A stretch of DNA of 64,000 nucleotides from Eledone cirrhosa (Eukaryota). Made by a program: the position numbers and the translations under genes. Below, in pieces: positions 9,108 to 44,381 of the stretch (the first letter of the stretch is position 1; each line of letters starts with the position of its first letter). The notes under the pieces are model-generated. The model was not told the origin of the DNA. It saw only the letters and a list, made by a program, of their open reading frames with translations, and did no database searches. The stretch is from contig OZ024751.1 in the NCBI GenBank assembly GCA_964016885.1, positions 36,394,001 through 36,458,000 of the forward strand, given 5' to 3'.

Positions 9108-9166
<59 letters not shown>

Positions 9167-9427
9167 TTTCTTTATTAACCACAAGGGTTTACATAAAGTA
9201 GACATTAAGGACAGTGCAGGACAATGCAGGACGGTACAAATGGGCATTTCTGCGTGTAAAAAAAACAAAAACAGAGGATGTAACAAAAATAACAATGAAA
9301 ATAACAATGAAAAATTCCCCAATAGGGGGGAGACTTCGGAGGGACATTTGTGGAGAAAGCCCAGTAAAAAGCCACAATGACCCTGACCACCAAGGCAAGT
9401 GCCCTCTCCCAGTTTTCCACCTTTAGT

Positions 9428-9784
9428 TTACAGATATATACTCAGAGTCGGCCCATTCACTCGGGCCATTCTTGCTTCTCTCACCCATCTTTCAACAAAA
9501 TGCTGGGAAGAGAGCACTTCCCTCTCTACTCTGATTTTCCTTTTCAAATGAAATTTGAAAAAGTCAATCAGAGCATCACCGAAGAGGTAAGTGCTCGTCT
9601 TCAGCCCTTTCAAACGTGTCCACCATACTATCTCTTTCGCCATGGCCACCAGACAGATAAAAACTGCCTGCCCTTCCCGGCTAAAGGAGGAGGGCGGGGC
9701 AATCCTCACGATGGACTCAGATGATAGCTGGATCCGTCCTAAACGCGACAGCAGGTGTTCGACATAAACCCACAAGTCAGCAAT
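9428..9784 (-). pseudogene. Frameshifted C-terminal continuation of ORF2
   Basis: Removing one base from the T5 run at 9784-9788 reads ...LVQCPK-IADLWVYVEHLL...EIVWWTR...FVERW...SIYL*, a typical L1/Tx1 post-zinc-finger tail, giving 1139 aa. Confidence 0.85.
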
Positions 9785-12700
9785 TTTTCGGACACTGGAC
9801 GAGTGCGTGCAGGACGGTTTCGTCGCCCTGCGCGCATCTCGGACATGCCCGGCTGACGGCACCTCCATGCCTGTAGAGTTTATCCCGAACTGGCAAGGCT
9901 CCTCGGTAGCACTGCCAGGCCAGAGATTTCTGGAAGTTGTCCATAGGCCCTGGCCCGAAAGTTCTTCCGAAGAGATTGGCTAGTTGATTTTCGTCGACGC
10001 CTAGAGTTTCCCCAAGTACGTCGTCGCTCTTCCCCTCCACTAATCCTCTATAGAACGCCGAGGTGGAGTTTCCACCGATCACATTGCCCGATTGGTCGAG
10101 GGCTGTGAGCGCCTGAAGACATTCCAGTCTCCAGGCGCTCCCTCTCGGTCTTCGCTTGACCCAGGACTGCAGCTCCGTCAAGGAAACGAGCTGGGGAAAA
10201 ACGCGTCTAGCAAACGGCGACCACACCTGATCACCGTCGAGGAAGAGGTGGAGATGTCGTAGCCTGAGCGCGTGCCTGCGCATCATCAGCCACGGCATGC
10301 CCAGCCCTCCACGTAGCGGGTGTTGACAACAGATGGACCGCCTGACCATCGGAGCACGTCCCTTCCACAAAAAGCGAAAGAGCAAACGCTCCAGCGCAGT
10401 CAGGCGAGGCTTAGGACAAGGTACGACGGTTAGGCGGTAGCAGATGACAGACGCGATGTACGCGTTAGCCACCTCCGCTCGACCTTTCAGGGATAGCTTC
10501 CTCTCCGCCCATTTCTGGGTGAGAGAAGCCACCCTGCTCGTCACCTCGTCCCAGTTTTTGTCCGTCTGGAGGTCCGGACCGAACCAGACCCCTAGCAATT
10601 TAACCGGTCCGTCCGTCCAGCGCCCGACGACGCTGTTGGACGGCATGGACCTGCCTCTCCAGGTGCCGAGCTGCAGGCCCACTGACTTTTCCTGGTTGAT
10701 CATTGCTCCTGTCACCGCTTCGTATTCTCTTAGTGTAGTGCCGATCGCCTCGATGTGTTTGGCGTTCGACACCACTACGGTGACATCGTCCGCATATGCT
10801 GACACGGATCTTCCGCATCCTAGTTCGCGCGGGACTCCCCTCAACGTCTCCAGTTTGTGCAGTAATGGCTCGAGAGTCAATACGTACAAGAGGGACGAGA
10901 GGGGACATCCTTGGCGGACCGAGCGCATGATGTTGAACGGTTCCGACAGGTGACCGTTCACTCTCACCACAGAGCAGATGTCGCTGTGCATGGCAGCGAT
11001 CCAGCCTCTGAAGACGGGCCCAAAGCCAGCCGCCCTCAGGACTGCCGCTAGGTAACGATGGTCGACCCTATCGAAAGCTTTCGACTGATCTAAATTGATC
11101 AAGGACCCACCCGTGCCAGGTTCCCTAGCTACCCTCTCTACGATGTATCGCATGAGGTGGAGGTTGTCGTGGATGGATCTGTCGGGAATGGCGCATGTCT
11201 GCGCCTCTCCCACCAGACCACCAACGACAAGCGCCAACCTCTTTGCTAGCACCTTGGCCAAAATCTTAAACTCTGTGTTTAGCAGAGTTATGGGCCGGAA
11301 ATTGTCTATGTTATCCCCCTTGTTCGGATCCTTTCTCAGCAGTGCCACCGCTCCTCGGCTCACAGAACTGGGAATTCTCCCGTTCTGTTGCCAGTTGCAG
11401 TAGACGTCCGCCAAGAGGCCTCCGAACAAGTCTGGCATCTGTACGTAAAGTTCATAGGGCAGACCATCCAAACCAGGCGATTTACCCCTTGTGCAGCCAG
11501 TCATTGCCTCCCGTACTTCAGCGGCTGTTATCGGCTTTTCGCAACACCTCGCCTCAGTGGCCGAGAGCCGCGGCAGCCCGTCGAGGTAGACACTAAAGTC
11601 CATCCCTCTACCCGGCCCCCCGCTGCCCCCGAACAGCTGAGCGAAGTGTCGCTGAAAAGCTTCACACATTTGCCCGGGATCGAGTAGCATGCGCCCGTCG
11701 TGGTCCACCAAAGACCGGATCGTGGCTTTGTTGCCACGACGCGCCTCCGCCACTCGGGCCCATTGAACGGCTTTCGTCCCCTCGTGTCTGAGAGCACGCA
11801 CCCTAGCTCTGACAACGCAGCCTTCGTGCTTTGCATTGAAGAATTGGTCAAGGGCCAATTTCGCCGCAAGCACGTCGGTCGCAATGCCTTTGCTAAGCGC
11901 CTCGTCTAATTTTCTAACTAGTTCTCCCTCTGCTCTATTTTTCTCTATTGCTAAAGCCTTACTAAACCTAATCGATTCTATTCTAATCGCTCTTTTCAGA
12001 GCAAACCACCACTTGTTGTTGACGATGGCCCCCGTCAACGCCCGCTTAACTAGTTCGCTAATCCGGTCTCTGTAGGCCTTGCGCGCTGGTAAGGACGCGT
12101 TTAGCTTCCAGTAGCCGGGTCCTCGTCTATGAAGCCTATCTAAGTCAAGCACACAGATCACGAATTTGTGGTCCGTGTAGCTGACTATCTTGAATTGTGG
12201 ACAGCCTATGCTAGACCTATCTATTTCCCTACAAAATACTCTATCTAGATATGATCTGGATGACCCTATGCGGTTTGTCCAAGTCCACATTGGCACATTC
12301 GGGAAATCCAATCGGTACCTGTCAGACAGTTCAAAACGCCTGAGCAGGTTGGTGAGGCTCTTGCACCCTCCACCCCTATCCGCTAATCCCACACAGTCCC
12401 AGCGTGCATCTAAGATCCCGTTCCAGTCGCCCACTAACACTAAAGAGCGGGACGTTCCAAGAAAGGTCTCCAGACGCCGGAAGAAATCAGGCCGCCCTGC
12501 TCCTGTCGGGGCATAGACGGCCACTAGCCTGAAAGCTTGCCCGTCTCCGCTGGTCACGTCCAGCACCACCAGCTTACCCTCTGGGTCCAGGAAGATGGCC
12601 CGTATGGCGAGATCCAAACCTCTCCGAAAAAGTACAGCAACTCCTCCACCGGATCCAGGACGGCTGGGAGATGCGTACACATCGTAGCCGCCGAAGATCG

Positions 12701-12848
12701 GTGCGAAGGCCCGTGCTTCGGAGATTCTGGTCTCGCTGATGGCCACTACATCTATGTTTAGTGACCTGAGGTCGTTGAGCAGGTGACCCTGCTTCCATGA
12801 CGACCCCAAGCCACGCGCATTTATGCTGCCTATTCTGAGTGAGGTCAT
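9777..12848 (-). CDS. ORF2: APE endonuclease + reverse transcriptase + CCHC zinc finger
   Basis: EN motifs INARGL, SETR, VYAP, GDWN, YLDR, TDHK; RT motifs KSPGLDG, FRPITLLN, SKAFDRVDH, RQGCPLS, YADD; C-terminal CPRC...ETVLHALVQC. Confidence 0.96.
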   Translation of the reverse strand: MTSLRIGSINARGLGSSWKQGHLLNDLRSLNIDVVAISETRISEARAFAPIFGGYDVYASPSRPGSGGGVAVLFRRGLDLAIRAIFLDPEGKLVVLDVTSGDGQAFRLVAVYAPTGAGRPDFFRRLETFLGTSRSLVLVGDWNGILDARWDCVGLADRGGGCKSLTNLLRRFELSDRYRLDFPNVPMWTWTNRIGSSRSYLDRVFCREIDRSSIGCPQFKIVSYTDHKFVICVLDLDRLHRRGPGYWKLNASLPARKAYRDRISELVKRALTGAIVNNKWWFALKRAIRIESIRFSKALAIEKNRAEGELVRKLDEALSKGIATDVLAAKLALDQFFNAKHEGCVVRARVRALRHEGTKAVQWARVAEARRGNKATIRSLVDHDGRMLLDPGQMCEAFQRHFAQLFGGSGGPGRGMDFSVYLDGLPRLSATEARCCEKPITAAEVREAMTGCTRGKSPGLDGLPYELYVQMPDLFGGLLADVYCNWQQNGRIPSSVSRGAVALLRKDPNKGDNIDNFRPITLLNTEFKILAKVLAKRLALVVGGLVGEAQTCAIPDRSIHDNLHLMRYIVERVAREPGTGGSLINLDQSKAFDRVDHRYLAAVLRAAGFGPVFRGWIAAMHSDICSVVRVNGHLSEPFNIMRSVRQGCPLSSLLYVLTLEPLLHKLETLRGVPRELGCGRSVSAYADDVTVVVSNAKHIEAIGTTLREYEAVTGAMINQEKSVGLQLGTWRGRSMPSNSVVGRWTDGPVKLLGVWFGPDLQTDKNWDEVTSRVASLTQKWAERKLSLKGRAEVANAYIASVICYRLTVVPCPKPRLTALERLLFRFLWKGRAPMVRRSICCQHPLRGGLGMPWLMMRRHALRLRHLHLFLDGDQVWSPFARRVFPQLVSLTELQSWVKRRPRGSAWRLECLQALTALDQSGNVIGGNSTSAFYRGLVEGKSDDVLGETLGVDENQLANLFGRTFGPGPMDNFQKSLAWQCYRGALPVRDKLYRHGGAVSRACPRCAQGDETVLHALVQCPKNC

Positions 12849-12883
12849 GTTTAAAATAGAGTGGAAAAGATGGGAAAGACCAC

Positions 12884-14983
12884 TTACCGTATTTTTGGTA
12901 GAGGAGGGATGGTTTTTACATCCCTTTTCACTTGATCGTCTGGTGAAGGGACCGTTGAATCGTCCCTTCGGCTGGTCGTCGGCTCTTCTAAGAGAATGTC
13001 TGAATATACTCTTCGATTAATGGTTCCTCCTAGGTCCCTGAAATCACCAACTGCGTTGGGAAATTTCGTTTTAATGTTTGTGTATTGTTTCTGTGCTATT
13101 TTTAGCAGTCTTATGTTAGTTGGCGTTTTGATTGGTGCTGGTATTATGTAGTCCTGTTGTGAAATGTCTGTGTGTTCAATTATGTAAGTCATTAGTTTCT
13201 TGTTGTGTGTGTTTATTGCCGTGCATTTGTTTTTCTGGGGGTGGGGTGTGGTTCTGCTATTTTCTTGTCGTTGTTGCTGGGTGTGTGTGTTTTGTTGTTG
13301 TGTTTGCGATGTTGGTGCTTGTGGTGGTGGTGTTGAAGGTGTTGTTGGCGGTGGGGTTGTCGCCGGTGGTGATGGTGGTGCTGGTGTGGGTGGTGATGGT
13401 GTTGGTGGTGTTGCTGCTGTGGGTCTCTTTGCAGTAGACTTTACCCTTTTCTCATTTCTTTCCTCCCTTTTCAAAGGCGACGATGCGCTGCTTCTGCGTT
13501 TGTGCCTTCTTGAGACCTTTTGCCATCCCTCTCCCACCTCACACTCCATGTCTGATTCTGTAAGGTCGGGGAGGGGTACCAGCTCCACTCTTTCACTTGT
13601 TGTTGTTGGTGATGTTTGCACTGGAGTCTCTGTTGCAGCTGCATTTGGTATTGCTGTTGTTGTTGTTAATATTTCCACTGCTGCTGCTGTCTTTGATTTC
13701 CGTGGAGTGGGTATGGGTGCCACGGACCTATCGTTCCTGGTTGCCGCTTGTCCTGTTGCTGGTAGCCGTGGAACCGGATTCGGGAGGAGGGGGGTTTTCT
13801 CCTTTCTCAGGGTCTTCTCGTTGCAGAAGGCCCTGAGGTGAGTCTTCGATCCACAGCGAAAGCATTTCGGGCGTTTGCCCTCAACACTTATGGGCAGTTG
13901 AGTGCCGTTATCGAAGTCTATCACATCCGGGATAGCTTCGATGCACTCCTGGTTGGTTTGGATTAGCATCTCAATGGAGGAGCCGACCCAATCTTCTCTT
14001 ACTTTTTTCTGTACTTGCAGTACAGTTGTTTTGTCCTCGATTCCGACGAGGACAGACGCGGCCAGCCAAGAAGGGGTCATTCCGGGGGGGACGTGGGTCA
14101 GTTTGACCCTCACAATTTTTTGCCCGCAGTAGGAGGGCACCAACACCATTTCCTCGCTCCTTAGGGTCACTACTGATTGGGCCTTTGCCTCCTGGGGTGT
14201 GGCAAAAAGTACGTCTACGGTGGCGTATTTTTTGCCTCGGGTGATGTGCGTTTTCCTCTGCCACACAGACCCCAAGGCTTTTTGTATTTGGGCCTCTGTG
14301 GCTCTTTCCACCCTACGGGATTTTGTACTTACTGTACGGTACGTGACCGTACAGTGCTCTTGGGTTTCGAAAAAATTTTTCGCTGCCTTGCAGATTGCTC
14401 GGTGTCCGTTCTTTGTCACCATCTTCTTCGCTTCCTCTAATTCCTCATTTGTTATGAGGATTGTTTCCAGGTTTTTCGCAATACCTGCAAATGAGATTGG
14501 TTTTTCTCTGCTGTTGTTGTTGTCGTCAGAGCTGCTGGTACTTTTGTTGTTGCTGCAGGTACTACGACTACTGCCTCCGCCGCTGTTGCTGTGGTTGTTG
14601 TTGGTGTTGCTGCTGCTAATGCTGTTGTTGTTTATGCTGCTGGTGATGCTGTTGCGGCTGCTACTGTTGTTTTCATTGTCACTGTTGCTGTTGTTATTAC
14701 GGCTGCTACTGCTATTATTCCTGACGTCAGACGAATGAACTGGGTTTTCGTATTTCCCGCACACCTGTTTCGTCGCTGTCGTCGTCGTCGTGGAGAAACC
14801 TTGCACGCTTTGCACGAGACTTTTCTTTTCTTTCGTCGCTTGCGAAAGAGAAGGTAGGGAGAGAGACACATTTAAAGAAGGGAGGGAGAGAGACAATCTT
14901 CTCTCTCCTGTAGTGATGATTGAGGAAGAAGAAGACGGAATGAGTGGGAGTGACGTATGAAATTTTTTTTTTTTGGTAGCCAT
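12884..14983 (-). CDS. ORF1, gag-like nucleic-acid-binding protein with CCHC zinc knuckle
   Basis: Open ~700-codon frame; first ATG at 14983 (MATKKKK), true start uncertain. CFRCGSKTHLRAFC = CX2CX4HX4C; basic WQKVSRRHKRR segment; Pro/Thr-rich tail; stop 35 bp upstream of the ORF2 ATG. Confidence 0.85.
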   Translation of the reverse strand: MATKKKKFHTSLPLIPSSSSSIITTGERRLSLSLPSLNVSLSLPSLSQATKEKKSLVQSVQGFSTTTTTATKQVCGKYENPVHSSDVRNNSSSSRNNNSNSDNENNSSSRNSITSSINNNSISSSNTNNNHSNSGGGSSRSTCSNNKSTSSSDDNNNSREKPISFAGIAKNLETILITNEELEEAKKMVTKNGHRAICKAAKNFFETQEHCTVTYRTVSTKSRRVERATEAQIQKALGSVWQRKTHITRGKKYATVDVLFATPQEAKAQSVVTLRSEEMVLVPSYCGQKIVRVKLTHVPPGMTPSWLAASVLVGIEDKTTVLQVQKKVREDWVGSSIEMLIQTNQECIEAIPDVIDFDNGTQLPISVEGKRPKCFRCGSKTHLRAFCNEKTLRKEKTPLLPNPVPRLPATGQAATRNDRSVAPIPTPRKSKTAAAVEILTTTTAIPNAAATETPVQTSPTTTSERVELVPLPDLTESDMECEVGEGWQKVSRRHKRRSSASSPLKREERNEKRVKSTAKRPTAATPPTPSPPTPAPPSPPATTPPPTTPSTPPPQAPTSQTQQQNTHTQQQRQENSRTTPHPQKNKCTAINTHNKKLMTYIIEHTDISQQDYIIPAPIKTPTNIRLLKIAQKQYTNIKTKFPNAVGDFRDLGGTINRRVYSDILLEEPTTSRRDDSTVPSPDDQVKRDVKTIPPLPKIR

Positions 14984-15358
14984 GTTTTTTTGCTTAAAAT
15001 GAAATTTTGGGTACAAAACCCCAATAACTGATTATTTAACCCCGAAGGGCCAAATAACGGACAGAAAGACCCCTCTCACGAGGAGGAGGGTGTCTTTATC
15101 AACAATTTGGTTCAAGTTTTAAACAATTTACAATTGTTTTAACGGTTAAAAATTACTATACCTTACAGAGCCGAGCCTCCGTCAACCATGGCATTCAATA
15201 ATAATAATAATAATGATAAATGTGTGTGTAATGTTGAAATGAAATAAAATATAATTTTTTGGAATTATAAAATGAATTAAATAGAAACGTGTCTGGATAG
15301 TCGTTAGTGATTAAATTAACGTTGGTGTGACAACTACAGCAATAGAATAGTAATGGCA

Positions 15359-43843: not shown

Positions 43844-43897
43844 ATAATAATAGTAATAATAATAATAATAATTGTTTCTACTAATAATAATAATAAT

Positions 43898-44042
43898 GGC
43901 TTTCTTTATTAACCACAAGGGTTTACATAAAGTAGACATTAAGGACAGTACAGGACAATACAGGACGGTACAAATAGGCATTTCTGCGTGTAAAAAAAAA
44001 CAGAGGATGTAATAACAAATAATAAAAAAATAACAATGAAAA
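43898..44042 (-). mobile_element. 5'-truncated copy (3' UTR only) of the Tx1-like element
   Basis: Aligns by eye with 9165-9313 (tttctttattaaccacaagggtttacataaagtagacattaaggacag...); (AAT)n on both sides. Confidence 0.9.
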
Positions 44043-44381
44043 ATAATAATAATAATAATAATAATAAAATAAATAATAATAATAACCAGAACAATATCCA
44101 CAATGGTATTCGATATGCTCAATTCCATGTAGGGGAGAAAAAAATATTGTCTGTGGATCATTTTTGCCTCCTTGGCACCTAGACATCAAAGGGTGTATAT
44201 AGTCAGAGAAATACTCCAATAATAGTAATAACCCTAAATATTTACTATACACAACATGTCGGAGTCTGATAGACAGAAATCTTCTCTGATGTCGGCAACA
44301 GACAAACTACAATAATAACCACAACAACAATAACTATATCAAAACAAAGGTGATTACAACAAAATAAATAGAAGAGTGAAG

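What the first reader, a model, noticed from the sequence alone, without database searches (positions are those of the whole stretch)
9108..15214. Near-intact Tx1-like retrotransposon that appears to target (AAT)n microsatellites
Seen: the full-length element has (AAT)n at both junctions, and an independent 145-bp truncated copy at 43898-44042 also has (AAT)n on both sides, in the same orientation relative to the repeat. Known: Tx1-clade families can be microsatellite-specific through their APE endonuclease (Kibi for TC repeats, Koshi for TTC repeats). Inference: this is an (ATT/AAT)n-targeting family, possibly undescribed in cephalopods, that may also lengthen these tracts.
Basis: partly seen in the sequence, partly recalled or inferred. 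Interest (0 to 1): 0.75.

Follow-up and report, generated by a model that had tools for sequence, protein, structure and literature searches.

The report
Octopod retrotransposon that targets ATT repeats
This is a very young jumping gene, likely from an octopod, whose thousands of copies sit almost always inside runs of the three-letter repeat ATT, likely because its own enzyme cuts there; repeat-seeking elements of this kind are known, and this one adds a target I did not find reported for its group.

Summary
Confirmed, and far larger than one window shows. 9165-15196 (minus strand) is a 6,032-bp two-ORF LINE of the L1/Tx1 group with one extra base in ORF2. Genome-wide, 1,621 of 1,811 5' ends are preceded by at least six perfect, in-phase ATT units; background for three units is 0.14%. 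The repeat is a target, not a tail. Three unrelated 5' UTR types all start after ATT. 21 of 56 truncated copies are ATT-flanked at scattered break points. Copies in ACT or minisatellite tracts carry no ATT tail, and two copies in imperfect tracts show 11- and 16-bp duplications. The family is recent: the nearest copy differs by 0.08%, and 20 of 52 copies keep both ORFs. Tx1 placement is likely but lacks named references. Whether the endonuclease or RNA-DNA pairing picks the site is untested. Tract lengthening is unproven, as no empty allele was found. Microsatellite-targeting Tx1 families (Kibi, Koshi) and TAA-targeting Dong are published, and this scan has already noted AAT-targeting retrotransposon trains elsewhere in this genome. 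Verdict: new member of a known kind.

The parts
9108..9164 (+). (AAT)19 tract: target repeat on the element's 3' side, read (ATT)19 in element sense
9165..15196 (-). Full-length L1/Tx1-group LINE, 6,032 bp, 5' type A (head GAATGCC)
   Evidence: ends fixed by comparison with 81 + 60 other copies
9165..9427 (-). 3' UTR; AATAAA at 9171-9176, six bases before the junction; no poly(A) tail
   Evidence: first five bases after the end motif in 139 copies
9428..12851 (-). ORF2: APE endonuclease (aa 23-211), reverse transcriptase (aa 512-755), CCHC zinc finger (aa 975-1022); one extra base in a homopolymer near 9784-9788 shifts the frame; intact copies encode 1,139 aa
12884..14983 (-). ORF1, 699 aa, low-complexity ends and one CX2CX4HX4C knuckle; RRM-like region suggested only by Atlas look-alikes
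   Evidence: no Pfam hit; fold uninformative
14984..15196 (-). 5' UTR, type A; sister subfamilies carry unrelated heads B and C on a 93-97% identical endonuclease region
15197..15214 (+). (AAT)6 tract: target repeat on the 5' side, joined in phase (ATT|G); may include the target-site duplication
43898..44041 (-). 5'-truncated copy of the 3' end, 91% identical, flanked by (AAT)5 at 43883-43897 and (AAT)8 at 44042-44065

Best explanation
This is a young, high-copy LINE retrotransposon family of the L1 group, likely the Tx1 clade, whose copies lie inside (ATT)n microsatellites in one fixed orientation, and it likely inserts there by target-primed reverse transcription after its APE endonuclease nicks the (AAT)n strand. 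Shown: the domain layout, copy number, flanks, polarity, absence of an element-borne tail, 5' truncations and two short target-site duplications. Inferred: the 3'-OH of the nick primes copying from the RNA 3' end, possibly helped by pairing of one or more terminal AUU units. A second nick about 11-18 bp away gives a duplication that is hidden in perfect repeat and explains the floor of 5-6 ATT units at 5' ends and between tandem copies. Each insertion leaves ATT on both sides, so the site can be hit again, which builds head-to-tail trains.
For: 1,621 of 1,811 type-A heads follow at least 6 perfect in-phase ATT units. 30 of 30 and 60 of 60 inspected type-A heads end ATT|G. Type-B heads: 29 of 30 pass the (ATT)3 test and all 30 end in ATT; heads A, B and C share no alignable sequence in their first 125 nt or so. 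Truncated copies: 21 of 56, and 9 of 15 young ones, are ATT-flanked at scattered break points against 0.14% background. Copies in an ACT tract (L045) and a minisatellite (L058, L059) have no ATT tail; L082 and L045 show 16- and 11-bp duplications. Other common repeats are not used in the same way: AT covers 5.3% of background DNA, AAT 0.24%, ACT 0.21%. 34 of 139 3' ends are followed across ATT by another head, and 14 of 22 full-length pairs mix 5' types, so they are separate insertions. The endonuclease catalytic residues align with those of human L1.
Against: 35 of 56 script-called truncated copies lack (ATT)3 at the 5' junction. Most have another reading: 11 join an antisense Dong-like element head to head, 5 are not true junctions, 3 have ATT just outside the test, 3 sit in imperfect tracts. 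5 remain unexplained. Two full-length copies (L065, L092) have only one ATT on the 3' side, two truncated ones (L052, L054) have none on the 5' side, and most 3'-side interruptions are not mirrored 5', so a fixed long duplication does not fit every site. Some same-type tandem neighbours are each other's nearest copies and share spacer variants, which points to local duplication rather than new targeting. No empty allele and no enzyme assay.
Confidence: 0.72

Rival explanations
1. The site is chosen mainly by RNA-DNA pairing: the transcript carries (AUU)n read-through at its 3' end and an (AUU) leader of about six units at its 5' end, which anneal to the tract, while the endonuclease is only loosely A+T-specific.
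For: No poly(A) in 139 3' ends although AATAAA lies six bases upstream. The 5' junction of full-length copies is almost always in phase with a floor near six units. Full-length copies are ATT-flanked far more often than truncated ones (80 of 81 against 21 of 56, Fisher p 8e-17). L065 and L092 lack a mirrored duplication.
Against: The six-unit floor is also what an 11-18-bp duplication gives. Truncated copies cannot carry a leader yet are often ATT-flanked. Later deletions are common (20 of 81 full-length copies have internal ones) and can remove 5' junctions. An interrupted leader GTT(ATT)5 occurs 12 times genome-wide, 4 of them in one array, with no dispersed family sharing it.
Confidence: 0.22
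2. The element encodes (ATT)n at both of its own ends and inserts at random; the tracts are element-made.
For: 118 of 137 copies have (ATT)3 right after the 3' end, as a repeat tail would give; the I element ends in TAA repeats (PMC3747384, passage).
Against: Off-target copies lack the tail. Truncated copies and three unrelated heads have ATT upstream. The tracts are often continuous with (CTT)n runs or with the ends of other elements.
Confidence: 0.03
3. Insertion is random and copies survive in ATT tracts through selection or local tandem duplication.
For: Some arrays look locally duplicated.
Against: An enrichment of about 700-fold with fixed strand and phase in copies only 0.1-1% apart; no similar use of AT, AC or ACT tracts.
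Confidence: 0.02

Closest known systems
Kibi (TC)n and Koshi (TTC)n of teleosts; crocodilian Tx1 families on (TTCC)n/(TTTC)n (PMC4494074, passages and section 15; PMC3812793, passages)
   Same: Tx1-type APE LINE specific for a microsatellite; meets that paper's rule of more than 20% of flanks.
   Different: Target is (ATT)n; host is likely an octopod; the RT is only about 28-30% identical over ORF2 to fish TX1-annotated proteins and falls on its own branch.
Dong, DongAg, DongBg (PMC3812793, passage)
   Same: Same repeat class (TAA)n, and DongBg is from a mollusc.
   Different: Dong belongs to the R4 clade with a restriction-like endonuclease (recalled; the review lists it among APE elements). 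Dong-like elements here share the tracts in the opposite orientation.
SART and TRAS on (TTAGG)n in Bombyx (recalled; also named in earlier scan note e1-9513955)
   Same: Two element lineages use one simple repeat from opposite strands and build trains.
   Different: Those are both R1-clade APE elements at telomeres; here the partners use different endonuclease classes at dispersed sites.
L1-Tx1 families of Octopus vulgaris (PMC13282606, Table 1 passage: 13 recently active families, 421 insertions)
   Same: Young Tx1 LINEs are already counted in an octopus, next to Dong-R4.
   Different: The word 'target' does not occur in that paper's main text; its consensus library was not seen and may hold this family.

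Membership tests
L1 group (L1/Tx1) LINE | ORF2 with N-terminal APE endonuclease, RT and C-terminal CCHC finger | tested here: met
   PF03372, PF00078, PF13966 above cut-off; human L1 ORF2p E 2e-52 over aa 5-856 against 1e-21 for R2
L1 group (L1/Tx1) LINE | 5'-truncated copies and target-site duplications | tested here: met
   56 of 139 ends called truncated; 16- and 11-bp duplications at L082 and L045; length not readable in perfect repeat
Tx1 clade | RT phylogeny groups with named Tx1 elements rather than L1 | tested here: inconclusive
   Quick IQ-TREE run (careful run unfinished), 93 rows: 24-row set with fish TX1-annotated proteins at SH-aLRT 99. phmmer 310-341 bits to the five near-full-length fish proteins and 230-278 to two shorter ones, against 181 to human L1. 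No Tx1L, Kibi, Koshi or L1 reference of confirmed identity was in the tree.
Tx1 clade | ORF1 of RRM plus CCHC type, not Transposase_22 (PMC5203782, passages) | tested here: inconclusive
   CCHC knuckle read directly; no Pfam hit; Atlas look-alikes 0.91-0.93 with zf-CCHC in 12-52% and ZCCHC3 RNA-binding domains in 82-84% of members; model pLDDT 33
Target-specific Tx1 | One sequence type in more than 20% of flanks (PMC4494074, Target Analysis passage) | tested here: met
   80 of 81; 1,621 of 1,811
Target-specific Tx1 | Endonuclease nicks the target specifically | not testable with these tools
   needs a nicking assay; the hairpin loop region is L1-length, two residues shorter than in the LTX chimera
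Kibi/Koshi lineage | (TC)n or (TTC)n target and nesting in the fish clade | tested here: not met
   target is (ATT)n; the octopod branch lies outside the fish group
Dong (R4 clade) | Single ORF with C-terminal restriction-like endonuclease (recalled) | tested here: not met
   two ORFs and an APE domain
An already named family in Repbase or Dfam | Sequence identity to a deposited consensus | not testable with these tools
   no such library is held

The most novel reading that the evidence does not exclude
An active Tx1 lineage has converged on the same (ATT/TAA)n repeat as Dong-R4 elements, from the opposite strand and with a different enzyme class, and anchors its 5' end through a co-transcribed (AUU) leader, so that octopod ATT microsatellites act as self-renewing landing pads that grow by 4-6 units and several kilobases with each hit.
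Probability: 0.2. Interest if true: 0.62.

Novelty: new member of a known kind. Interest (0 to 1): 0.42.

Why it matters
It gives an unusually large, young set (about 1,800 type-A 5' ends, many copies intact) for asking how APE endonucleases read microsatellites, which a review calls not well understood (PMC3812793, passage). It shows that at least some of the recent Tx1 activity in octopod genomes is steered into one repeat, which bears on claims that such insertions hit genes at random. It also warns that ATT/AAT microsatellite markers in these animals can carry 6-kb insertion alleles. It does not establish a new mechanism.

Tried and rejected
DNA searches of the own genome with both ends gave nothing because common words are skipped; exact patterns were used instead. 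Empty allele: the left flank is single-copy in the assembly, and laying four runs on the 5' junction and right flank gave no contig, so nothing follows either way. Expression: no RNA holder listed; run X1 shows more depth at the 3' end, but it is not on record as RNA and contigs cannot show level. A 5' ribozyme to explain the precise start: no Rfam family at gathering score, and a rough HDV descriptor found nothing starting at the junction; rejected. Retrotransposed copies with ORF2 spliced out: 0 matches to the one junction tested, and the 20 internal deletions seen do not use the GT donor. Double priming by Tx1 and Dong at one site: 11 of 35 direct head-to-head joints against 17 of 101 Dong neighbours across a tract, Fisher p 0.09; later deletion is the simpler reading. 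Horizontal transfer: near-identical sequence in several coded organisms cannot be judged without names. 80 metagenome relatives were only 24-41% identical and served as tree background. The ORF1 fold failed (pLDDT 33). Earlier-findings look-ups by words and by sequence were empty.

Full report
Observation. The element spans 9165-15196 on the minus strand between (AAT)19 and (AAT)6. The short copy near 43898-44041 is its 3' end at 91% identity, between (AAT)5 and (AAT)8, in the same orientation. ORF1 (14983-12884, 699 aa) is open and has one CCHC knuckle. ORF2 starts at 12851 and carries APE endonuclease, RT and zf-RVT domains above Pfam cut-offs. One extra base in a homopolymer near 9784-9788 shifts its frame; the nearest copy and many run contigs lack that base.

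Family size and age. Exact motifs give 1,628 type-A 5' ends, 598 matches to one type-B head, 6,573 3' ends and 1,963 3' UTRs of the window's own type; these are lower bounds and the reversed controls were 0. Among 46 full-length copies the median pairwise difference is 1.09%, and the window copy differs from L327 by 0.08%. 20 of 52 copies with both ends found keep both ORFs (8 of the 60 had no 3' end in the stretch fetched). The best named relative is an Argonauta hians protein at 74% over the RT region, so the host is likely an octopod.

Flanks. 747 of 757 forward-strand heads have AATAATAAT within 0-8 nt (the reverse strand was counted several times per site and was not used). 1,621 of 1,811 heads follow six perfect in-phase units. 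I then scored 139 3' ends on contig C1. 97 came from the first 100 places; the rest came from 40 stretches taken, 34 of them picked because no type-A head was listed nearby, so the set is enriched for truncated copies. Two ends at a locus edge were dropped. (ATT)3 lies within 15 nt of the 5' junction in 80 of 81 full-length and 21 of 56 truncated copies, and after the 3' end in 74 of 81 and 44 of 56. Background is 526 of 379,430 positions.

Target or tail. Four results favour a pre-existing target. Three unrelated 5' UTRs all begin directly after ATT. Truncated copies broken at scattered points are ATT-flanked, 9 of 15 among young ones. Copies that landed in an ACT tract or a minisatellite have no ATT tail, and L082 and L045 show 16- and 11-bp duplications. 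The tracts are shared with other things: 34 of 139 ends are followed by another head, 14 of 22 full-length pairs mix 5' types, and spacers run from 15 to 78 bp; 35 of 101 ATT-flanked copies have a Tx1 tail upstream and 17 an antisense Dong-like element.

Results against. 35 truncated copies fail the 5' test. By inspection: 11 join a Dong-like element head to head, 5 are not true junctions or abut another Tx1 piece, 1 abuts an RTE-like piece, 3 have ATT just outside the test, 3 lie in imperfect tracts, 2 follow (TTC)n, 2 lie in a minisatellite, 2 in other triplet-rich DNA, 1 follows (AAT)n in the opposite sense, and 5 are unexplained. Later deletions are common: 20 of 81 full-length copies have internal ones. 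L065 and L092 have one ATT only on the 3' side. Several same-type tandem neighbours are each other's nearest copies, so some arrays grew by local duplication.

Mechanism. Target-primed reverse transcription after a nick on the (AAT)n strand follows from established L1-group biology; the catalytic residues align with human L1. The exact cut phase cannot be read, because any AUU on the RNA end would give the same junction. In 26 copies with intact ORF2 the 5' tract is shorter than the 3' tract (medians 9 and 16 units, Wilcoxon p 0.002), with a floor of 5-6 units. That fits a duplication of about 11-18 bp or a short leader on the RNA. I put enzyme-led targeting at 0.72 and pairing-led targeting at 0.22; that the family targets ATT at all I put near 0.95. 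Each insertion would duplicate 4-6 units but also splits the tract, and with no empty allele net lengthening is untested.

Clade. A quick tree of 93 RT rows puts the element with fish proteins annotated 'Transposon TX1' in a 24-row set at SH-aLRT 99, on a separate octopod-plus-environmental branch (careful search unfinished, midpoint root, no L1 reference, rows covering under 280 RT residues left out). Scores are 310-341 bits to near-full-length fish proteins and 181 to human L1. One fish protein, BAC82605, may be a Kojima and Fujiwara 2004 deposit (recalled, not confirmed). Tx1 is likely, not proven.

What is known. PMC4494074 (passages, section 15) lists Kibi (TC)n, Koshi (TTC)n and crocodilian (TTCC)n/(TTTC)n targets; the tree figure with further targets is not held. 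PMC3812793 (passages) lists TAA as the target of Dong elements only. PMC13282606 and PMC8967140 (passages) count L1-Tx1 and Dong-R4 in octopus without targets; PMC12988792 had no hit for the terms searched. PMC3747384, PMC5203782, PMC2684134 and PMC9004415 were seen as passages. Kojima and Fujiwara 2004 was not read, and no supplements were opened; the consensus library of PMC13282606 may hold this family. Seven searches found no Tx1 family reported on (ATT)n. Earlier notes of this scan describe trains of two unrelated retrotransposon kinds on AAT elsewhere in this genome; I checked polarity and sharing here myself.

Verdict. A real, well-supported, very young microsatellite-targeting LINE family with a target not found in print for Tx1: a new member of a known kind, interest 0.42.

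Noticed in passing
L061, L063, L119, L124, L144, L154, L164, L166 and others: At least two Dong/R4-like families (CCHC finger and RPD..D motif read; family label recalled) share the tracts antisense to Tx1: 19 + 12 of 139 3' neighbours and 17 of 101 5' neighbours; their own truncated 5' ends abut ATT. One exception in polarity, L049.
   Followed up: partly
L066, L093, L106, L119, L124, L128, L144, L146, L154, L164, L166: Eleven truncated Tx1 copies join a Dong-like element head to head with no repeat between; deletion or double priming not separated.
   Followed up: partly
L067, L070, L101, L102, L113: Subfamilies with unrelated 5' UTR/ORF1 regions (switch points near element positions 540, 1802, 2265, 2346) on a shared ORF2 and 3' end: repeated 5'-end swapping. 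598 exact matches to one type-B head.
   Followed up: partly
L355-L358 (G000:C1 about 114.79-114.81 Mb); L347-L348: Array members share an interrupted spacer, GTT(ATT)5 or CCCTT(ATT)15, before each head: local duplication or 5' integration by homology to the neighbour's head.
   Followed up: partly
window 12882-12887 (minus): A GTAAGT donor-like motif overlaps the ORF1 stop; no spliced genomic copy for the one junction tested.
   Followed up: partly
L009, L010, L011, L019, L024, L043: A short SINE-like repeat whose end abuts the same tracts, upstream of 8 of 81 full-length copies.
   Followed up: no
runs X5 and X8: Organism B holds a near-complete copy at about 99% identity and low depth; organism E gives 58,591 matching contigs at 90% or more. 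The family is not confined to one species label.
   Followed up: no
proteins P0004-P0097: A large unnamed ENA group at about 50% RT identity, with clusters of up to 732 members, is the sister branch of the octopod family; host and target unknown.
   Followed up: no
window 1-64000: Extremely microsatellite-rich: 237 Tandem Repeats Finder rows.
   Followed up: no
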